From Escherichia phage A4: a stretch of DNA of 64,000 nucleotides. Numbering within the stretch: position 1 is the stretch's first letter; the number at the start of each line of letters is the position of its first letter. Positions 243-63,287 of the stretch are shown piece after piece. The position numbers and the translations under genes are program-made. The stretch lies in the sequence record ON286972; one strand, 5' to 3'. The notes under the pieces were generated by a model. The model did not search any database. It was not told where the DNA came from and saw nothing but the letters and a program-made list of their open reading frames with translations.

Positions 243-1082
243 ATGAAATTAAATTTTATTATCAACTTTAATGTTAAAGAAACCGATCATTACGCATCAG
301 AAGATGACCGTGTTGCACCAGCTTCGTCTGAATACATCAGAAATGAAAATGTCCATATGCATGAAAATTATTTCGACTTTGGTAATTTTATTATCTACCG
401 TGGATTTAAGGATGTTGTATTCCGTTCCAGATATGAAGACTTTGAACATGCACTCATTGATGTACCGGATGAATTAGTATTCCAGTTCATGTTACTTGGT
501 ATTAAAGATTATGACTTTATAGTTTATAACCATTATACTAAGCGTATTATGATTGGTAATGATTCATATGATCTTACTTATTATTCCAGTACTGATGAAG
601 ATTTAGAAAATATTAAACGCCGTTCTGGTGGTATACGTAATTGTTCATCTTCAAACTCCAGTAGAATGAGTGAAAGGTTTTTTGATTTCAAAAATAGCAA
701 TAATAACGACTGTGAAGACGCGGACAATACTGAACATGTAATGTTTGAAATTGACCACAATAATGGATATAATGACTTCCTTAACGTTCTGAAGCCTTAT
801 ATCAATCATAAATTCGTCAAAGATGTAAATCTGGTGGCACGTGACTTACAGTACAGTGATCGTACTGGTGGTATGCCTGTACCAATGGATCGTGTATGTA
901 CGAACAATACAGTATTCAATGTCCCACGAGAAGATGTTGCATTTGTATTTCTGGCATTTTTGAATTCAGATGCACTATGGGACGATAATGAAAGACAATT
1001 TAGTTCAAGACATATTGAAATAATTCGTCAAAATACATTACTACTGTGGAAGAAATTTACTGAAAATACCCAGGACAAATAA
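243..1082 (+). CDS. Hypothetical protein (279 aa)
   Basis: Track ORF with ATG start; no recognisable motif. Confidence 0.6.
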   Translation: MKLNFIINFNVKETDHYASEDDRVAPASSEYIRNENVHMHENYFDFGNFIIYRGFKDVVFRSRYEDFEHALIDVPDELVFQFMLLGIKDYDFIVYNHYTKRIMIGNDSYDLTYYSSTDEDLENIKRRSGGIRNCSSSNSSRMSERFFDFKNSNNNDCEDADNTEHVMFEIDHNNGYNDFLNVLKPYINHKFVKDVNLVARDLQYSDRTGGMPVPMDRVCTNNTVFNVPREDVAFVFLAFLNSDALWDDNERQFSSRHIEIIRQNTLLLWKKFTENTQDK

Positions 1083-1090
1083 ATTCTTGG

Positions 1091-1099
1091 TGATATAAT
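1091..1099 (+). promoter_or_regulatory. Extended -10 element TGaTATAAT (candidate promoter for the downstream structured element)
   Basis: TGATATAAT about 85 nt upstream of the conserved block; no good -35. Confidence 0.35.
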
Positions 1100-1184
1100 G
1101 ATGAGTGGCAATATATCTTTGTCACTCTTTTTTTTTTAATCCTGAAAGGTTCCATATGGAAATGATTAAGAGCCTAATCCACTC

Positions 1185-1653
1185 GAAAATGTAGAGGGTA
1201 GATGAGTAGTCCTTTCAGTACGAACAGCAGATGAAACCCGTCAGATGTGGGCATATTATGAACCCCTCACGGCAATGCGGCTGTATAAAGAACTCCGATA
1301 AGCACACAGAGAGTTCCTAGATAGACATATAAGGATCGCACCTTACCAGATTTGCTAAGGGAGATTTCATTAGAAATTGCGGTCAACTATTTGTACAAGA
1401 TAGTTGCGTCCAAAATTTGGTGAAATCAAATACCAGTACTGTTCATATGGTACTCGTATTATGTGTCGGGATGTTTAAGACCGACGACCGTTGCTACAAG
1501 AACCGCGATAGAGAGAAACAGAGCAACCCGCTTTCGCCTCGTTAAGAGAATTCGTGATATGAAATATGTGAAGACCACCAGCGTCAAATTTTAATTCTTT
1601 CCCCCAGTGGGGGGATGAAATATGCTCTTCCAAACCTCGTCAATATTAATTAA
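1185..1653 (+). ncRNA. Candidate large structured non-coding RNA, copy 1 of 2
   Basis: No ORF of 60 aa or more; GC-enriched; conserved blocks shared with 61771-62334; hairpins with compensatory changes. Confidence 0.45.
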
Positions 1654-1776
1654 AACCATTTAGTACTATTAGAATTATTCAGAGCGTAGCGATGAATTAA
1701 TTCTACTGATGTTGATTGAGTGCTAACGAAATCAATATCGAGTACATTATTTGATGTTTCCTAAAAAGGAATAATA

Positions 1777-2333: not shown

Positions 2334-2948
2334 GTGATATATAATTTTGGTATTAATGACATTCCTGGCGACTCCATACCATCAAGTTTGGATTATCATA
2401 TATATGATAAATGGACTGGAATAATTAGGCGTTGCTATAGTCTTAAAAGAACTGATAAGAATTTATCATACATAAACACAACAGTTTGTGATGAATGGAA
2501 ATATTATTCCAATTTCAAAAAATGGTTTAAACTTCACTATATTGAGGGATATCAATTAGATAAAGATATAATTGGGGGAGATAAAGATATTTACTCACCT
2601 GAAACGTGTGCCTTTATACCTGGTTTAATTAACAGTTGTATAATTGACGGAAATAGAGGTAATAATTATATTGGTGTGTCGTATTTCAATGATGATAGGT
2701 GTTCCAAAAAATATAGACCTGCAATATGTAAATTTGGAAAACAAATACGAAACTTTGGGTTATTTCACACACCTGAAGAAGCTCATCAAGTATGGCAAAG
2801 GGAGAAAATAAAATATCTATATGAAATCATAGAAAAATACAGTTCTGTTGTCGATTTAAGAGTTATTAATGGAATAAAGCGTAGAATAGATATTTTACAA
2901 TATGATTTAGATAATGGTTTGATAACAGAAACAATAAGTAAAATTTAA
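2334..2948 (+). CDS. Putative DNA-binding protein with AP2-like C-terminal region, possibly homing-endonuclease related
   Basis: GTG start after AAAGGA; C-terminal YIGVS..FG.F.TPEEA pattern resembles AP2 domains seen in phage HNH/AP2 proteins. Confidence 0.4.
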   Translation: MIYNFGINDIPGDSIPSSLDYHIYDKWTGIIRRCYSLKRTDKNLSYINTTVCDEWKYYSNFKKWFKLHYIEGYQLDKDIIGGDKDIYSPETCAFIPGLINSCIIDGNRGNNYIGVSYFNDDRCSKKYRPAICKFGKQIRNFGLFHTPEEAHQVWQREKIKYLYEIIEKYSSVVDLRVINGIKRRIDILQYDLDNGLITETISKI

Positions 2949-60257: not shown

Positions 60258-60869
60258 ATGTCTAAATATCATGTTTATTATGTAACCAAATTGAGTTTAC
60301 TAGATGAACTCAATCATACTAGTACCAAAATGAAACGTTATACTTATAATGGTATTACTTTCAGATACTTTCCACAAAAAGTACTAACATTCGTTAAGAA
60401 TTGTAAGTGCATTGCTTGTGGCATCGAGGCTACAGAAGTTCGAATCGAACGTTCCAACTGTAGTGATCCGGTATATGGTAAACCGCATTTAAATGTGTAT
60501 GCAGTATGTGGTCTTTATGAAGTTATGATGACTGTAGATCATAATCATCTTGCATCTAAAGGTGGTGCTGATTTGGAGTCAAACTTTAATACAATGTGTG
60601 CGAGATGTAATCAGTTGCGTTCAAATAAAACTGAAACGGTTGATGAATTCCTTGAGAAAGTCAAAAACCGAAATCTACTTGAAGAACATATGAATCGTTA
60701 TTTCAATAAGATTGAGAAGGAAAGTAAACGTCCTACACCAGAAATGCTCGAAGAACGTAGATTGCGTCAAGAGCTATGGGATAACGATCATCTGTGGCAT
60801 GTTCGTGAGTACGGGCGACACATGAAAGCATTAAAAAAGGCACAAAAGCTGTTGGATAAACATGAGTAA
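60258..60869 (+). CDS. HNH endonuclease
   Basis: CKCIACG ... VDHNHLASKGG ... NTMCARCN: HNH motif with flanking zinc-binding Cys pairs. Confidence 0.75.
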   Translation: MSKYHVYYVTKLSLLDELNHTSTKMKRYTYNGITFRYFPQKVLTFVKNCKCIACGIEATEVRIERSNCSDPVYGKPHLNVYAVCGLYEVMMTVDHNHLASKGGADLESNFNTMCARCNQLRSNKTETVDEFLEKVKNRNLLEEHMNRYFNKIEKESKRPTPEMLEERRLRQELWDNDHLWHVREYGRHMKALKKAQKLLDKHE

Positions 60870-60922: not shown

Positions 60923-61279
60923 ATGAAATCAAAAATCTTTTTACCACAGTTAATGTGGCATCTTGCAGAGTTAGATGAAGATGATGTGTATACAGACTAT
61001 GGTGCATGGGATGACAGTACTGAAACCGTTGGTCCAGATGTGCAGTACAAAATCATTTGCAATGAAAGTAAAGGGCATAGACGATTTACTGAAGAATTTG
61101 ATCTTGTTTTTCTTGACATAAACGAGAACAAGTATTATCATTGTACGTATGAACGAGGTTTAACAGAATATCGACCACAACGACCATTCGAGTATGAAAC
61201 GGATGGTGTTAAGTGCAATGAAGTTTCTGTTACCAGAGAAGAAATTATCACTTATAGAACTTTGTGGAAATATGTGTAA
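60923..61279 (+). CDS. Hypothetical protein (118 aa)
   Basis: GGAG RBS. Confidence 0.5.
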   Translation: MKSKIFLPQLMWHLAELDEDDVYTDYGAWDDSTETVGPDVQYKIICNESKGHRRFTEEFDLVFLDINENKYYHCTYERGLTEYRPQRPFEYETDGVKCNEVSVTREEIITYRTLWKYV

Positions 61280-61677
61280 TGCTTAAAGATTTAGATTTTT
61301 CAAACTTAGAAATTGTTAGTGCTGTGAAAAATATCTCTGACATGGGAGACGAAAAGACAGTACTGTTAACTATTACATTTGTCAAAGAAGAAGATAGTTA
61401 TTTACATCTTACAGGTATTGAAGAACTAATTCATAAAACTAATCTACAAGATAATAGGAAGTATATTAAGCTTCAGGCTTCCTATACGAAAAAAACGTCA
61501 AATTTTGTAGACCTAAATAGTGTAGTCAAGGTGGTATTCAATCACCCTGAACAAAAGTACAGAAATGTGTCACGCAATGAGACAGATGCCAGTACTCTAC
61601 AGCTTCTTCAGGATATTGAGTTCATTGAAACAGTATTTGAACGAAGCAGCAAAGAATTGAAAAAAGTTTATATGTAA
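61279..61677 (+). CDS. Hypothetical protein
   Basis: Track ORF 61264-61677 trimmed to ATG 61279 (TAATG overlap). Confidence 0.45.
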   Translation: MLKDLDFSNLEIVSAVKNISDMGDEKTVLLTITFVKEEDSYLHLTGIEELIHKTNLQDNRKYIKLQASYTKKTSNFVDLNSVVKVVFNHPEQKYRNVSRNETDASTLQLLQDIEFIETVFERSSKELKKVYM

Positions 61678-61698
61678 TTGGGACAATACTTTATATTG

Positions 61699-61707
61699 TG
61701 CTATAAT
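61699..61707 (+). promoter_or_regulatory. Extended -10 element TGcTATAAT (candidate promoter for structured element copy 2)
   Basis: TGCTATAAT about 65 nt upstream of the conserved block; weak -35. Confidence 0.35.
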
Positions 61708-61770
61708 TATATTGTAATGGAAAATGTCAGTGGACGTTTTAACAACGGACAAGAAGAACCTACTTCTCTT

Positions 61771-62334
61771 GAAAATGTAAAGGATAGATGAGCCTTCCCA
61801 CTGAGGCGATGAGCAAAAGAAACCCGTTAGTACCATCCAAGTGCATTCATACAAACGCGAAATAAGACACGGATCACACGGCGACACGGCTCAATAAAGA
61901 ACTCCGATAAGCATACAGAGAGTTCCTCGATAGATGTATAAGGATCGCACCTTACCAGATTTGCTAAGGGAGTTTTACTTAAAACAAGCGGTCAATTTTT
62001 CTACGGGAAAGTTGCACCCAAAATTTGAGTAAAACGAGTACTGAATTGATCGAATAGTTCCAGTACTTTAGTGCAGGGGATGAAAATACCTGCGACCGTT
62101 GCATATGACTGCGATAGAGAGAAACAGAGCAACCCGCTTTCGTTCTCCAAAAATTGGACACCCTTGATCCGTCCAAAATATGGAGAAATTCGCAATTCGA
62201 TAAATTCCGATGCCATCAGCGTCAAAATCAAGAACCTTAATTGGTTCTTTTTTAATATCATTCCCCTGCGGGGGGATGAAAATGTCCTCAACAAATCCCG
62301 TCAATCTTTAAAAGTACAATACAATATTAATTAA
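61771..62334 (+). ncRNA. Candidate large structured non-coding RNA, copy 2 of 2
   Basis: Shares ordered conserved blocks with 1185-1653; embedded track ORFs are not conserved in copy 1. Confidence 0.45.
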
Positions 62335-62397
62335 TATGAATGAGTGAGTTATCGTAGATAACGAAACGAATTCTTGAGTTACGAGAGAACGAAGTGA

Positions 62398-62825: not shown

Positions 62826-63287
62826 ATGACTCCCTGGAGAGATTTTATGGAAAATATTAACGACTTGCGACATGTTATGGACTTCATTGGCTGTACTGAA
62901 GAAGACAGTGCTTATGATGAAGTACTATTGACATTTATTGAAAACAGCATTATACTACCAGCAATTGCACATAGCTGGCATTTACAAAGTAAACACTACA
63001 CAAAACATCTACAATTAGATGAGTTGTATAAAGAGTTACCAGAATATGTCGATGCGTTCATTGAAGGCATTATGAACACTCGTGGTGCTTTACAAATTGG
63101 TACTGGACACAGTTATAAGTTCACACCAATTGAACAGTGTATTCCGATTCTTGAAGAATACTGTGAACAATGTAAGTACGTTCATGCTATGCTTGAAGAA
63201 GCTGAAGACTATGGCAGTACTAATACCCTTGAAGATATAATGAGTTTCATTGAGGGTACTTTATATAAACTTAAGTATCTTGAATAA
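62826..63287 (+). CDS. Hypothetical acidic protein (153 aa)
   Basis: Track ORF. Confidence 0.5.
   Translation: MTPWRDFMENINDLRHVMDFIGCTEEDSAYDEVLLTFIENSIILPAIAHSWHLQSKHYTKHLQLDELYKELPEYVDAFIEGIMNTRGALQIGTGHSYKFTPIEQCIPILEEYCEQCKYVHAMLEEAEDYGSTNTLEDIMSFIEGTLYKLKYLE

What the first reader, a model, noticed from the sequence alone, without database searches (positions are those of the whole stretch)
1185..1653. Two divergent copies of a ~0.5 kb GC-enriched structured non-coding element
Regions 1185-1653 and 61771-62334 contain no conserved ORF yet share an ordered series of blocks. The longest is an ~80 nt block, aaagaactccgataagcaNacagagagttcctNgatag...tataaggatcgcaccttaccagatttgctaagggag (about 1283-1363 and 61893-61972). 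An identical 32-mer, gcgatagagagaaacagagcaacccgctttcg, sits at 1505-1536 and 62111-62142, and both copies end in aatattaattaa. Between blocks the sequence differs but hairpin potential is kept with compensatory changes: GTCGG..CCGAC (1465-1485) versus GCAGG..CCTGC (62073-62093); CCCCagtGGGG versus CCCCtgcGGGG; AACTAT..ATAGTT versus AATTTTTC..GGAAAGTT. Both are far more GC-rich than the surrounding genome. This is the pattern expected of a structured RNA, and I could not match it to tRNA, tmRNA, RNase P or group I/II intron cores.
Basis: seen in the sequence. Interest (0 to 1): 0.85.

Follow-up and report, generated by a model that had tools for sequence, protein, structure and literature searches.

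The report
New large pseudoknotted RNA of jumbo phages
The two look-alike stretches are two copies of a previously undescribed gene family for a large, intricately folded non-coding RNA, kept in four or five diverged copies by 121Q/Rak2-like jumbo phages of enterobacteria; what the RNA does is unknown.

Summary
Window 1140-1663 and 61724-62324 (+ strand) are paralogues, about 66-78% identical, with no third copy in the window. The window is a relative of Escherichia phage 121Q. The element occurs 4-5 times per genome in 61-71 phage records (Asteriusvirus, Eneladusvirus, Mimasvirus and others) and in many metagenome contigs, giving 98 distinct near-full-length copies.

It is non-coding. Substitutions show no codon phase and most short indels are 1-2 nt.

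It is strongly structured. On 54 distinct copies, 87% of cells in about 100 proposed pairs are paired, against 38-46% when partners are slid. Seventy pairs change on both sides. Four pseudoknot or tertiary helices are 98% paired. G-U cells outnumber A-C cells, which points to the + strand as RNA.

Every copy has its own TGRRAC-N16-TGnTATAAT promoter and a conserved structured 3' module. One paralogue class is a free-standing unit between opposite-strand genes, ending at a terminator.

Rfam 15 gives no match to RNase P, tmRNA, introns, GOLLD, ROOL or HEARO, and I found no description in the literature.

My best reading is a new class of large "ornate" RNA gene that probably acts in trans. Its function is unresolved. 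A role at replication origins and a role as a cis-acting leader remain rivals.

The parts
1072..1099 (+). Promoter of copy A: AGGACA, 16 nt, TG-A-TATAAT (extended -10)
   Evidence: Promoter scan. The same TGRRAC-N15-17-TGnTATAAT arrangement lies upstream of 86 of 101 distinct copies, and all 101 have a TATAAT-like -10.
1103..1137 (+). 5' hairpin GAGTGGCAA..TTGTCACTC plus T10, between the promoter and helix H1. It is terminator-like. It may stop read-through from the upstream gene or serve as a 5' stem-loop.
   Evidence: Equivalent hairpins occur in class A and class E copies of other phages. The role is inferred.
1140..1653 (+). Core of RNA copy A (about 514 nt)
   Evidence: nhmmer match to the family profile, E=2.5e-124. 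First row of alignment A3. Pair counts.
1142..1221 (+). Domain 1. H1 is 1142-1149/1211-1218. It encloses the variable hairpin H2 (1150-1161) and H3 (1174-1201, conserved loop GAAAAUGUA). H1x is 1206-1208/1219-1221 and flanks the 3' strand of H1 (H-type pseudoknot).
   Evidence: H1 93.7% paired, 7 of 8 pairs change on both sides. H3 90%. H1x 100% paired with UA/AU/CG at its middle pair. Copy B has TCAGTGG/CCACTGA and GCC/GGC at the same places.
1224..1344 (+). Domain 2. H4 is 1224-1228/1280-1284, H5 is 1238-1241/1269-1272 (capped directly by UUCG or UACG in reduced copies), H6 is 1249-1265, H7 is 1290-1316, H8 is 1331-1344. Tertiary pairing PK3 is 1275-1277 with 1326-1328.
   Evidence: H4 and H5 are 100% paired. 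H7 is 95% paired and all 6 of its pairs change on both sides. PK3 is 100% paired (AUG/CAU, ACA/UGU, AUA/UAU). H6 (66%) and H8 (79%) are weaker.
1363..1485 (+). Domain 3. H9 is 1363-1369/1421-1427 and has a variable tip carrying the UUGUACAA..GUUGCGUCCAAAAUUUG sub-domain. H10 is 1430-1459. H11 is 1465-1485.
   Evidence: H10 94.5% paired with 8 of 9 pairs changing on both sides. The H9 base is 89% paired. In some classes the tip is replaced by a plain hairpin.
1490..1563 (+). Pseudoknotted centre. H12 (1490-1494/1523-1527) crosses H13 (1511-1515/1531-1535). H14 is 1504-1508/1552-1556. H13b is 1538-1540/1546-1548. PK2 joins the H10 loop 1442-1448 to 1557-1563.
   Evidence: H12, H13 and H14 are 100% paired in 54 of 54 sequences with 3-4 pair types each. 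PK2 is 94.6% paired and all 7 of its pairs change on both sides (UUCAUAU/AUAUGAA; AUCGAAU/AUUCGAU in copy B).
1595..1653 (+). H16 hairpin (1595-1605/1609-1619, UUCUUUCCCCC..GGGGGGAUGAA) and the conserved tail ..CAAAYCYCGUCA(A/G)UAU
   Evidence: The inner 6 pairs of H16 are 88-100% paired, with many U-G pairs. The tail is nearly invariant. The AUG-led reading frame here is not conserved (frames shift between copies, seen directly in alignment A3).
1654..1776 (+). AU-rich linker and 3' module of copy A (hairpins around GCGTAGC and TTGATT..AACGAA..AATCAA), reaching the SD/ATG of the next gene at 1777
   Evidence: Compared by eye with the family's 3' module. Divergent in this paralogue, so the boundary is approximate.
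61680..61707 (+). Promoter of copy B: GGGACA, 16 nt, TG-C-TATAAT
   Evidence: Family-wide promoter.
61724..62317 (+). Core of RNA copy B (about 594 nt). It has the same helices as copy A: H1 61727-61733/61798-61804, H4 61810-61814/61889-61893, H7 61899-61925, H9 61972-62035, PK2 62049-62055/62195-62201, H12 62098-62102/62129-62133, H13 62117-62141, H14 62110-62114/62190-62194, H16 62256-62280. It also has three insertions.
   Evidence: nhmmer E=2.1e-110. Coordinates mapped through A3. Longer than A because of the long form of H6 (61831-61877), the insertion closed by H13b (62144-62186) and the hairpin at 62230-62249.
62230..62258 (+). Optional terminator-like hairpin AAGAACC..GGTTCTT plus a T run, inside copy B upstream of H16
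   Evidence: Present in classes B, D and E and absent from A and C. Whether it terminates transcription or is a peripheral helix is unknown.
62318..62397 (+). Linker and 3' module of copy B (GAGTTATC-GTA-GATAAC hairpin, ACGAATTCTTGAG, hairpin with AACGAAGUGA loop), ending at the next gene's ATG (62398)
   Evidence: Same motif vocabulary as the family's 3' module and as 121Q copy D.

Best explanation
Each region is an autonomous gene for a large non-coding RNA: a core of about 0.5 kb and about 0.6-0.7 kb with its 3' module. The RNA belongs to a family confined, as far as seen, to 121Q/Rak2-like jumbo phages.

Shown:
- The sequence is not coding.
- It is kept as five ancient, non-homogenised paralogue classes in Eneladusvirus, Mimasvirus and related genomes, and four copies in 121Q. 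The copies are spread around the genome.
- Every copy is preceded by its own promoter, with a TGRRAC box 16 nt upstream of an extended -10.
- The + strand can fold into about 16 helices plus at least four pseudoknot or tertiary helices, supported by abundant compensatory changes.
- Invariant nucleotides sit mostly in junctions and loops.
- A peripheral sub-domain is found at either of two insertion points.
- One class is a free-standing unit between genes on the opposite strand and ends at a terminator.

Inferred:
- The bacterial RNA polymerase, perhaps helped by a phage sigma factor or activator, starts about 10-50 nt upstream of H1.
- The RNA folds into a compact, globular architecture and acts as RNA in trans, as a ribozyme, as the RNA core of a ribonucleoprotein, or as a self-assembling particle, alongside the DNA-metabolism ('middle') genes that use the same promoter type.
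- The paralogues are not redundant.

The biochemical activity is unknown.
For: Reality and spread: (4-5 places per genome in 61-71 phage records). Searches give 158 profile hits, 98 distinct near-full-length copies and 50 clusters at 90% identity.

Non-coding. Mismatches fall evenly over the three phases (for example 16/18/19 and 63/52/58) and most short indels are 1-2 nt. The spot is an unannotated gap in the curated 121Q and CBB records.

Structure: one search gives 87.1% of 4636 cells paired against 38-46% when partners are slid, 70 of 100 pairs with changes on both sides against 29-35, a covariation score of 0.386 against <=0.094, and 0 of 500 shuffles as high. One search gives 98.1% paired for the pseudoknot helices against 26-45% slid.

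Strand: 372 G-U cells against 126 A-C cells.

Promoter.

Free-standing unit: 121Q copy D at 326648-327162 lies between minus-strand genes 594 and 595/596. A bidirectional terminator follows class D copies.

Orthologous paralogue classes.

Transplanted sub-domain.

Structured 3' module.

No known family.

The -35 'TGAAACG' promoter class was tied to DNA-synthesis genes in phage CBB (PMC5259590).
Against: - There is no transcript evidence. I found no RNA-seq for this phage clade.
- Thermodynamic stability is unremarkable: MFE z = -1.71 on the + strand and -0.77 on the - strand.
- Most copies have no terminator before the next gene, so they could equally be long leaders.
- Several classes contain a terminator-like hairpin upstream of the conserved H16 and tail, which a simple 'one stable RNA' picture does not explain.
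- Dispersed, syntenic, non-homogenised paralogues fit a position-dependent (cis) role at least as well as a trans role.
- No partner protein or substrate is identified.
- The sequences are related, so part of the shuffle-based significance reflects phylogeny. The slid-partner control is the fairer one.
Confidence: 0.6

Rival explanations
1. The units are replication origins, or their primer RNAs. A middle-type promoter makes a structured pre-primer RNA that forms a persistent RNA-DNA hybrid in the AU-rich stretch after the core. Phage RNase H processes the hybrid to prime leading-strand synthesis. The comparison is with T4 oriF/oriG (middle promoter plus unwinding element) and ColE1 RNA II (a folded pre-primer of about 550 nt with a G run).
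For: - There are four or five copies spread round the genome. In 121Q they sit at 90.3, 192.8, 247.5 and 326.6 kb.
- All copies are in one orientation, including copy D inside a minus-strand cluster.
- The paralogues are syntenic and not homogenised, as expected of position-dependent elements.
- The promoter belongs to the class linked to DNA-synthesis genes in CBB (PMC5259590).
- There is an invariant GGGGGG run and an AU-rich linker after the core.
- 121Q encodes RNase H and an RNase H-like exonuclease.
Against: - Known R-loop origins do not need a 500-nt RNA with four pseudoknots and invariant junctions.
- Cumulative GC skew runs smoothly through both copies, with no inflection. This is weak evidence, because transcription dominates skew.
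- More than 90% of genes are on this strand anyway, so shared orientation is weak evidence.
- No iterons or initiator-binding repeats were noticed.
- The 3' module is itself a conserved RNA structure rather than a simple unwinding element.
Confidence: 0.12
2. The element is a cis-acting leader. The nascent RNA modifies the transcribing polymerase, giving processive antitermination as with HK022 put or the EAR element, or it acts as a giant sensor governing the internal terminator-like hairpin and so expression of downstream genes.
For: - It lies immediately downstream of a promoter in every copy.
- Most copies run without a terminator into co-directional genes.
- Classes B, D and E have a terminator-like hairpin inside the element.
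- The 3' module abuts, and in class E overlaps, the SD/ATG of the next gene.
- These genomes hold many intrinsic terminators: 74 in CBB (PMC5259590).
Against: - Class D copies are followed by a terminator and convergent genes, so they have nothing to regulate, yet they keep the whole core and the 3' module.
- Classes A and C lack the internal hairpin.
- Known antiterminator RNAs are 70-120 nt, not 500-650 nt (own knowledge).
- The downstream genes differ between classes and share no function.
Confidence: 0.08
3. The element is a diverged member of a known large RNA family: RNase P RNA, tmRNA, a group I or II intron, GOLLD/ROOL, or an IscB/TnpB guide (HEARO/omega RNA).
For: - The size and pseudoknot content are in the range of these RNAs.
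- Short resemblances recalled from memory, such as ACAGAGCAACCCGC versus RNase P conserved regions and GAUGAG..CGAA versus the hammerhead core.
- HNH endonuclease genes lie near three copies.
Against: - Rfam 15 gives no match at gathering score or at E<=10 for copies A and B, nor at E<=1 for three other classes.
- ARAGORN finds no tmRNA.
- The element does not interrupt a gene.
- The hammerhead-like positions are variable in the family: the GAA and A6 equivalents vary.
- The neighbouring HNH proteins are about 203 aa and match only HNH and homing-endonuclease families. They are absent from the Yersinia and CBB loci.
Confidence: 0.03
4. The conservation acts on DNA rather than RNA. The element would be a dispersed repeat kept as a homing-endonuclease target, a recombination site, or the remains of a mobile element.
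For: - HNH genes lie within 0.5-0.9 kb of window copies A and B and of 121Q copy C. One of them is present in the window but absent at that spot in 121Q.
- An identical 32-mer and a near-identical 80-nt block between copies A, B and D suggest some gene conversion.
Against: - Compensatory changes that keep base pairing, a bias to G-U over A-C on one strand, UUCG/UACG capping of a shortened helix, and long-range pseudoknot pairings are signatures of a single-stranded RNA, not of duplex DNA sites.
- There are no terminal repeats or target-site duplications.
- The copies are syntenic across genera.
- The HNH neighbours are not universal.
Confidence: 0.03
5. The region encodes small proteins, as several GenBank records annotate (3-5 'hypothetical proteins' over the element).
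For: Short ORFs exist: 42-52 aa in copy A and 87 aa (GTG start) in copy B. Some records carry automatic annotations over the element.
Against: - Substitutions show no codon phase and frame-breaking 1-2 nt indels occur between close orthologues.
- The median longest stop-free stretch is 54 aa on the + strand and 68 aa on the - strand.
- The AUG after the G run opens different frames and different peptides in different copies.
- The curated records leave the gap empty.
Confidence: 0.01

Closest known systems
GOLLD, ROOL and OLE: large 'ornate' bacterial and phage RNAs (Rfam; PMC5737381; cryo-EM in bioRxiv 10.1101/2024.12.08.627333)
   Same: These are non-coding RNAs of about 500-800 nt with many helices and pseudoknots and with conserved junction nucleotides. 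They are often phage-borne, they are autonomous genes, and their biochemical function was unknown at discovery.
   Different: There is no sequence or structure match. The host range differs: this family is in jumbo phages of Enterobacterales and Xanthomonas, not in Firmicutes or lake metagenomes. It is not next to tRNA genes. It is kept as 4-5 diverged paralogues per genome. Self-assembly has not been tested.
Pseudomonas jumbo phage PA5oct 'putative lncRNA' ncRNA002 (451 nt) and ncRNA004 (619 nt), defined by RNA-seq (PMC7318152)
   Same: They come from a distantly related jumbo-phage lineage. They are ORF-free transcribed regions of similar length, there are four per genome, and they are on the + strand.
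   Different: They are not detectably homologous. The family profile gives only E=0.15 over a CCCC..GGGG-type hairpin in ncRNA004, and none of the family's invariant motifs is visible. No structure has been reported for them.
ColE1 RNA II and the T4 oriF/oriG origin transcripts (own knowledge)
   Same: A dedicated promoter makes a non-coding RNA of several hundred nucleotides. In T4 it is a middle-mode promoter and there are several dispersed origins. RNA II is folded and uses a G run.
   Different: Those RNAs lack a conserved multi-pseudoknot core. No origin activity has been shown here, and there is no skew inflection at the copies.
HK022 put and the EAR processive-antitermination RNAs (own knowledge)
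   Same: A structured RNA encoded directly downstream of a phage promoter.
   Different: They are 70-120 nt against 500-650 nt here. They always precede the operon they act on, whereas class D here precedes only a terminator and convergent genes.
Candidate structured RNAs from the IMG/VR-wide screen (10,006 csRNAs; PMC10690425)
   Same: That screen used comparative genomics on the same viral collection. Fragments of this element may be among its unnamed candidates.
   Different: Those candidates are 29-151 nt long. No RNA of about 500 nt, no paralogue family and no jumbo-phage association is described in the text I searched. I did not check the supplementary lists.

Membership tests
RNase P RNA (Rfam RF00010/RF00011 and relatives) | Match to the covariance model, with the P4 pseudoknot and conserved regions CR-I to CR-V | tested here: not met
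   No hit at gathering score or at E<=10 on copies A and B, nor at E<=1 on three other classes.
tmRNA | tRNA-like domain formed by the 5' and 3' ends, a tag reading frame, four pseudoknots | tested here: not met
   ARAGORN finds none in the window. No Rfam hit. The short frame after the G run is not conserved.
Group I / group II introns | Match to the intron covariance models, and insertion within a host gene with flanking exons | tested here: not met
   No Rfam hit. The element is intergenic with its own promoter.
GOLLD / ROOL / OLE / raiA large RNAs | Match to the family covariance model | tested here: not met
   No hit even at E<=10 or at E<=1 in other classes.
GOLLD / ROOL | Homo-oligomeric RNA-only assembly | not testable with these tools
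   This needs native gels or cryo-EM of the transcript.
HEARO / omega RNA of IscB-TnpB nucleases | RNA directly adjacent to, or overlapping, a gene for an IscB (RuvC+HNH, about 400-500 aa) or TnpB nuclease, plus a match to the model | tested here: not met
   No Rfam hit. The neighbouring HNH proteins are 203-204 aa and match only HNH and homing-endonuclease families. They lie 0.5-0.9 kb away, and no HNH gene is annotated in the Yersinia and CBB loci.
Processive antitermination RNA (put / EAR type) | Located just downstream of a promoter | tested here: met
   A promoter lies 4-54 nt upstream of H1 in the copies examined.
Processive antitermination RNA (put / EAR type) | Always followed by the co-directional operon, with terminators, on which it acts | tested here: not met
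   Class D copies are followed by a terminator and convergent genes.
R-loop / primer-RNA replication origin (T4 oriF/oriG, ColE1 RNA II type) | Initiation of DNA synthesis at the locus, with a persistent RNA-DNA hybrid processed by RNase H | not testable with these tools
   Only circumstantial features are available: dispersed copies, the promoter class, a G run and an AU-rich linker. There is no GC-skew inflection at the copies.
PA5oct lncRNAs (PMC7318152) | Sequence homology to ncRNA002 or ncRNA004 | tested here: not met
   nhmmer with the 54-sequence profile, filters off: best E=0.15 over 40 nt.
Structured non-coding RNA (generic) | Base pairing maintained by compensatory changes beyond controls, and absence of a coding signal | tested here: met
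   (87% and 98% paired against 26-46% slid; 70 and 17 pairs with changes on both sides). One search shows no codon phase.
Structured non-coding RNA (generic) | A transcript of the predicted strand and ends exists | not testable with these tools
   No RNA-seq for this clade was found in the library. Only promoters are inferred.

The most novel reading that the evidence does not exclude
This is a new class of large catalytic or self-assembling RNA, comparable in complexity to RNase P or group I introns, or to the GOLLD/ROOL particles. Jumbo phages that infect E. coli and its relatives encode it as five ancient, non-redundant paralogues. It would perform a reaction or build a structure needed during the DNA-metabolism phase of infection.
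Probability: 0.3. Interest if true: 0.9.

Novelty: categorically new. Interest (0 to 1): 0.82.

Why it matters
Large RNAs with many pseudoknots and invariant junctions are rare. Most that have been understood turned out to be ribozymes, guide RNAs or unusual assemblies. This family is as complex as those. It is absent from Rfam 15 and from the literature I could search, and it sits in culturable phages of E. coli K-12 (121Q, PBECO4, phAPEC6, Sharanji), so it can be tested directly by genetics, antisense knock-down, probing and cryo-EM.

The five paralogue classes have been retained since before the phage genera split. That argues the RNA is important and that the copies are not interchangeable, which is unusual for a phage RNA gene.

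The finding also corrects annotation. Many GenBank records spurious 'hypothetical proteins' across these loci. It also gives a covariance-ready alignment for a new family.

If the origin hypothesis proved right instead, it would define how 350-kb phage genomes start replication.

Tried and rejected
1. Rfam at the gathering threshold on the whole window, and at E<=10 on both copies and E<=1 on three other paralogue classes: only chance-level hits (snoRNAs, miRNAs, CRISPR repeats over the CCCC..GGGG hairpin).
2. ARAGORN: no tRNA or tmRNA.
3. Hammerhead-like reading of GAUGAG..CGAA with H1x as stem II: rejected because the equivalents of A6, A13 and A14 vary in the family.
4. RNase P-like reading of ACAGAGCAACCCGC: this stretch is the loop of H13 and pairs with GUUGC (H12). 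It does not form a P4-like helix.
5. 11-nt tetraloop receptor (CCUAAG/UAUGG) and k-turn (C/D box) readings of CUAAGGGAG and GAUGAG/CUGA: the partner strands are not opposite each other.
6. Small peptide from GGGGGGAUGAAA...: the frames differ between copies.
7. Homology to the PA5oct lncRNAs: none.
8. An unbiased scan of all column pairs for further covariation: dominated by paralogue-class correlations. Only contiguous antiparallel runs were kept (PK2, PK3, H1x, H13b).
9. Possible pairing of the H6 loop GUUUGUAC with GUACAAAC in the 3' module: no consistent co-occurrence.
10. MFE z-scores are uninformative: -1.71 and -0.77.
11. H15 (GAC/GUC versus GAUGC/GCGUC registers) could not be settled and is left out of the model.
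12. H2, H6, H9b/H9c and the outer part of H16 are poorly supported on the MAFFT alignment (51-70% paired). They need a structure-aware alignment.
Full report
**What is there.** Each one's only significant match elsewhere in the 64-kb window is the other: a 271-nt HSP at 78.6% identity, E=2e-54, plus collinear flanking HSPs, and no third copy. The 32-mer, the 80-nt block and the hairpins are at the stated coordinates. GC is 42.0% and 40.8% against 34.9% for the window, in the top 2% and 5% of same-size windows. That is enriched but not 'far more' GC-rich. The shared 'aatattaattaa' ending is not homologous between the copies and is not conserved in relatives.

**Where it comes from.** The window is about 89% identical to Escherichia phage 121Q (Asteriusvirus) over copy A.
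- The element is found at 4-5 places per genome in 61-71 phage records from the 121Q/PBECO4, Serratia BF/Yersinia fHe-Yen9-04/Erwinia, GAP32/CBB, Salmonella 7t3/Munch, Xanthomonas XbC2/XaC1 and Klebsiella groups.
- In 121Q the four copies lie at 90.3, 192.8, 247.5 and 326.6 kb. They sit in gaps of about 0.6-0.8 kb that the curators left unannotated; at the 247.5-kb copy a 156-nt minus-strand ORF, gene 516, is annotated inside the gap. Many automatically annotated records place 3-5 'hypothetical proteins' there.
- Pattern scans of IMG/VR, of metagenomes and of GTDB genomes, followed by a profile search, gave 158 hits and 98 distinct near-full-length copies, forming 50 clusters at 90% identity.
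- The three confirmed hits in 'bacterial' assemblies are on contigs of 185 kb, 299 kb and 2.8 kb. They are most simply jumbo-phage contigs.

**Not coding.**
- Between close orthologues and between paralogues, mismatches fall evenly on the three phases (16/18/19, 44/43/52, 63/52/58).
- Most short indels are 1-2 nt.
- The median longest stop-free stretch is 54 aa on the + strand and 68 aa on the - strand.
- The AUG that follows the invariant G run opens different frames and peptides in different copies.

**Structure.** I derived a model by eye from a 24-sequence alignment and an RNAalifold run. I then counted it on a stored MAFFT alignment of 54 distinct copies (A3).
- Of 4636 cells in 100 pairs, 87.1% form standard pairs, against 38-46% when the 3' partners are slid by 1-3 columns.
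- Seventy pairs have changes on both sides, against 29-35 for the slid controls.
- The covariation score is 0.386 against <=0.094, and none of 500 shuffles reaches the observed values.
- H4, H5, H12, H13 and H14 are paired in 54 of 54 sequences, with up to four pair types. H7 is 95% paired and all six of its pairs change on both sides.
- A search of all column pairs added four contiguous antiparallel pairings. Together with H12 they are 98.1% paired, against 26-45% slid.
  - PK2 joins the H10 loop to the strand after H14. It has 7 bp: UUCAUAU/AUAUGAA in copy A, AUCGAAU/AUUCGAU in copy B, and UUCAUGU/ACAUGAA and AUUGUAU/AUACAAU elsewhere.
  - PK3 is AUG/CAU, ACA/UGU or AUA/UAU.
  - H1x is a 3-bp helix flanking the 3' strand of H1.
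  - H13b closes an optional insertion.
- H12 (GUUGC/GCAAC; GUUGU/ACAAC; GUCAU/AUGAC) crosses H13 (GAGAG/CUUUC; GGAAG/CUUCC; GCGAG/CUUGC; ACUGG/CCAGU), which forms a pseudoknot.
- In reduced copies H5 is capped directly by UUCG or UACG.
- The two window copies alone differ by compensatory changes in H1, H1x, H4, PK3, H9, PK2, H11, H13b and H14.
- G-U cells (372) outnumber A-C cells (126) in the model, so the folded strand is the + strand, the same as almost all genes.
- MFE z-scores are unremarkable at -1.71 and -0.77. The case rests on covariation.
- H2, H6, the H9 tip and the outer part of H16 are weakly supported on this alignment. H15 is unresolved.

**Gene anatomy.**
- All 101 distinct upstream regions examined have a TATAAT-like -10. 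Eighty-six have a TGAAAC, TGGGAC or TGGAAC box 15-17 nt upstream (16 nt in 63 of them), and 79 of those have the extended -10 TG.
- In the window the promoters are at 1072-1099 and 61680-61707.
- This is the 'divergent RpoD-like' promoter, with -35 TGAAACG, that the CBB paper found mainly upstream of DNA-synthesis genes (PMC5259590).
- Some classes, including copy A (1103-1137), have a hairpin plus a U run between the -10 and H1.
- After the core comes an AU-rich linker and then a conserved 3' module. The module has a long irregular hairpin closed by GAAUU/AAUUC (GAAUG/CAUUC in class E) with an AACGAAGUGA-type loop. This is followed by UUCUUUGAC, a 5-bp hairpin paired in 19 of 19 sequences with three covarying pairs (CAUUC/GAAUG, CAUAC/GUAUG, CUAAC/GUUAG), and GGCAAAU.
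- In most classes the next gene's SD/ATG follows. In class D the unit ends at a bidirectional terminator facing a convergent gene.
- In 121Q, copy D is a + strand island between minus-strand genes 594 and 595/596. So the element is a gene in its own right, not merely a leader.

**Paralogues.** Clustering puts one copy from each of Serratia BF, Yersinia Yen9-04, CBB, GAP32 and several metagenomic genomes into each of five groups. Orthologues across genera are closer than paralogues within a genome, and the overall median identity is 65%. The duplications therefore predate the genera, and all copies have been kept without homogenisation. Differences between classes lie mostly in peripheral elements. 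A sub-domain of about 35 nt (UUGUACAAUAUAGAUCCGUCCAAAAUUUG-like) sits either on the tip of H9 or in the insertion closed by H13b, and window copy B carries both. Swapping a peripheral element between two insertion points is what is seen in globular RNAs such as RNase P and group I introns (own knowledge).

**What it is not.**
- Rfam 15 (4227 families) gives nothing at gathering score on the window, nothing meaningful at E<=10 on either copy, and nothing at E<=1 on three other classes.
- ARAGORN finds no tRNA or tmRNA.
- The resemblances I recalled to RNase P, hammerhead, k-turn and tetraloop-receptor motifs fail on inspection of the alignment.
- The RNA-seq-defined lncRNAs of the distantly related jumbo phage PA5oct are not detectably homologous (PMC7318152).
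- Flanking proteins give no consistent partner: unknown-function families, Dam methylase, HNH endonucleases, a DUF7325 protein and a Dps-like protein.
- Literature searches on jumbo phages, Rak2-like phages and large phage RNAs found no description. The IMG/VR-wide screen reports only candidates of 29-151 nt (PMC10690425).

**How it most likely works.** Established here are a conserved promoter, a conserved non-coding unit, a + strand fold with at least four pseudoknots, invariant junctions, a structured 3' module, a free-standing class, and five ancient paralogue classes. From these I infer that the RNA is made from its own promoter together with the middle or DNA-metabolism genes. I also infer that it folds into a compact tertiary structure and acts as RNA, most likely in trans, as a ribozyme, an RNP core or an assembly (confidence 0.6 for this package). 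The activity itself is unknown.

The main rivals are position-dependent roles.
- Replication origin or primer RNA (0.12). For it: dispersed, co-oriented, syntenic copies, the promoter class, a G run and an AU-rich linker. Against it: the elaborate fold and the smooth GC skew.
- Cis-acting leader or antiterminator (0.08). For it: its position behind the promoter and the internal terminator-like hairpin. Against it: class D and its size.
- A diverged known family (0.03), a DNA-level repeat or homing target (0.03), and small proteins (0.01) are unlikely.

**Verdict.** The family is not in Rfam 15 or in the searched literature and matches no known RNA class, so I rate it categorically new. The caveat is that its function, and therefore its 'kind', is still open, and no transcript has yet been seen.

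Noticed in passing
window 2334-2948 and 60258-60869; 121Q genes 170 (91320-92108) and 513 (246019-246630): HNH endonuclease genes lie 0.5-0.9 kb from RNA copies A, B and C in this phage group. The one after copy A appears to be absent at that spot in 121Q: the record there lists only gene 416 and then the methyltransferase, and tblastn finds no match in the 121Q regions held. tblastn with the two window proteins finds no further copies in the window or in the roughly 205 kb of 121Q that I fetched. They may be homing endonucleases that use the conserved RNA gene as their target. They are not seen beside the copies fetched from Yersinia fHe-Yen9-04 or CBB.
   Followed up: partly
window 1385-1420; 61990-62028 and 62150-62183: A sub-domain of about 35 nt (UUGUACAA..GAUCCGUCCAAAAUUUG-like) occurs either at the tip of H9 or in an insertion after H13, depending on the paralogue class. 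Window copy B has both versions.
   Followed up: partly
window 1103-1137: A terminator-like hairpin plus T10 lies between copy A's -10 box (1094-1099) and helix H1, so the predicted start site falls at or inside its 5' arm. The same layout is conserved in class A copies of other genera. Its role is unexplained. It could insulate the unit from upstream read-through, stabilise the 5' end, or attenuate transcription.
   Followed up: no
upstream of every copy, for example window 1072-1099 and 61680-61707: The promoters share a TGAAAC, TGGGAC or TGGAAC box exactly 16 nt (sometimes 15 or 17) before an extended -10, rather than TTGACA. This suggests recognition by a phage sigma factor or activator. 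In 121Q, copy C lies immediately after an RNA polymerase sigma factor gene (167).
   Followed up: partly
GenBank records listed (for example OR699282.2, PQ390715.1, PP886230.1): Several deposited genomes annotate 3-5 'hypothetical proteins' across the element. The lack of any coding signal suggests these are spurious calls.
   Followed up: partly
L103 (Silvania hatchlandensis NZ_JAMGZK010000045.1, 185 kb), L106 (Enterobacteriaceae RIT714 WJYB01000004.1, 299 kb), L105 (Clostridium MAG contig): Full-length copies of the RNA gene occur on contigs filed under bacterial genome assemblies. These are probably unrecognised jumbo-phage contigs.
   Followed up: partly
L102 1364-1421 (PA5oct ncRNA004, record 246116-246734): The 3' end of the PA5oct lncRNA has a UUUCCUUCCC-AAAC-GGGGAGGAAA hairpin that resembles H16 of this family (E=0.15 only). 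This could be chance or a very distant relationship.
   Followed up: partly
window 62826-63287: The second gene after copy B encodes a DUF5856 / 'starvation-inducible (Dps-like) DNA-binding protein' homologue. The gene before copy B (61264-61677) is a DUF7325 protein, and its 121Q counterpart is annotated as a structural protein.
   Followed up: no
window copies A and B and 121Q copy D: 1283-1363, 61893-61972, L007 about 1860-1940: The H7 hairpin and the following ~80-nt block are almost identical in three Asteriusvirus paralogues (A, B, D) but not in copy C. This hints at local gene conversion between otherwise diverged copies.
   Followed up: no
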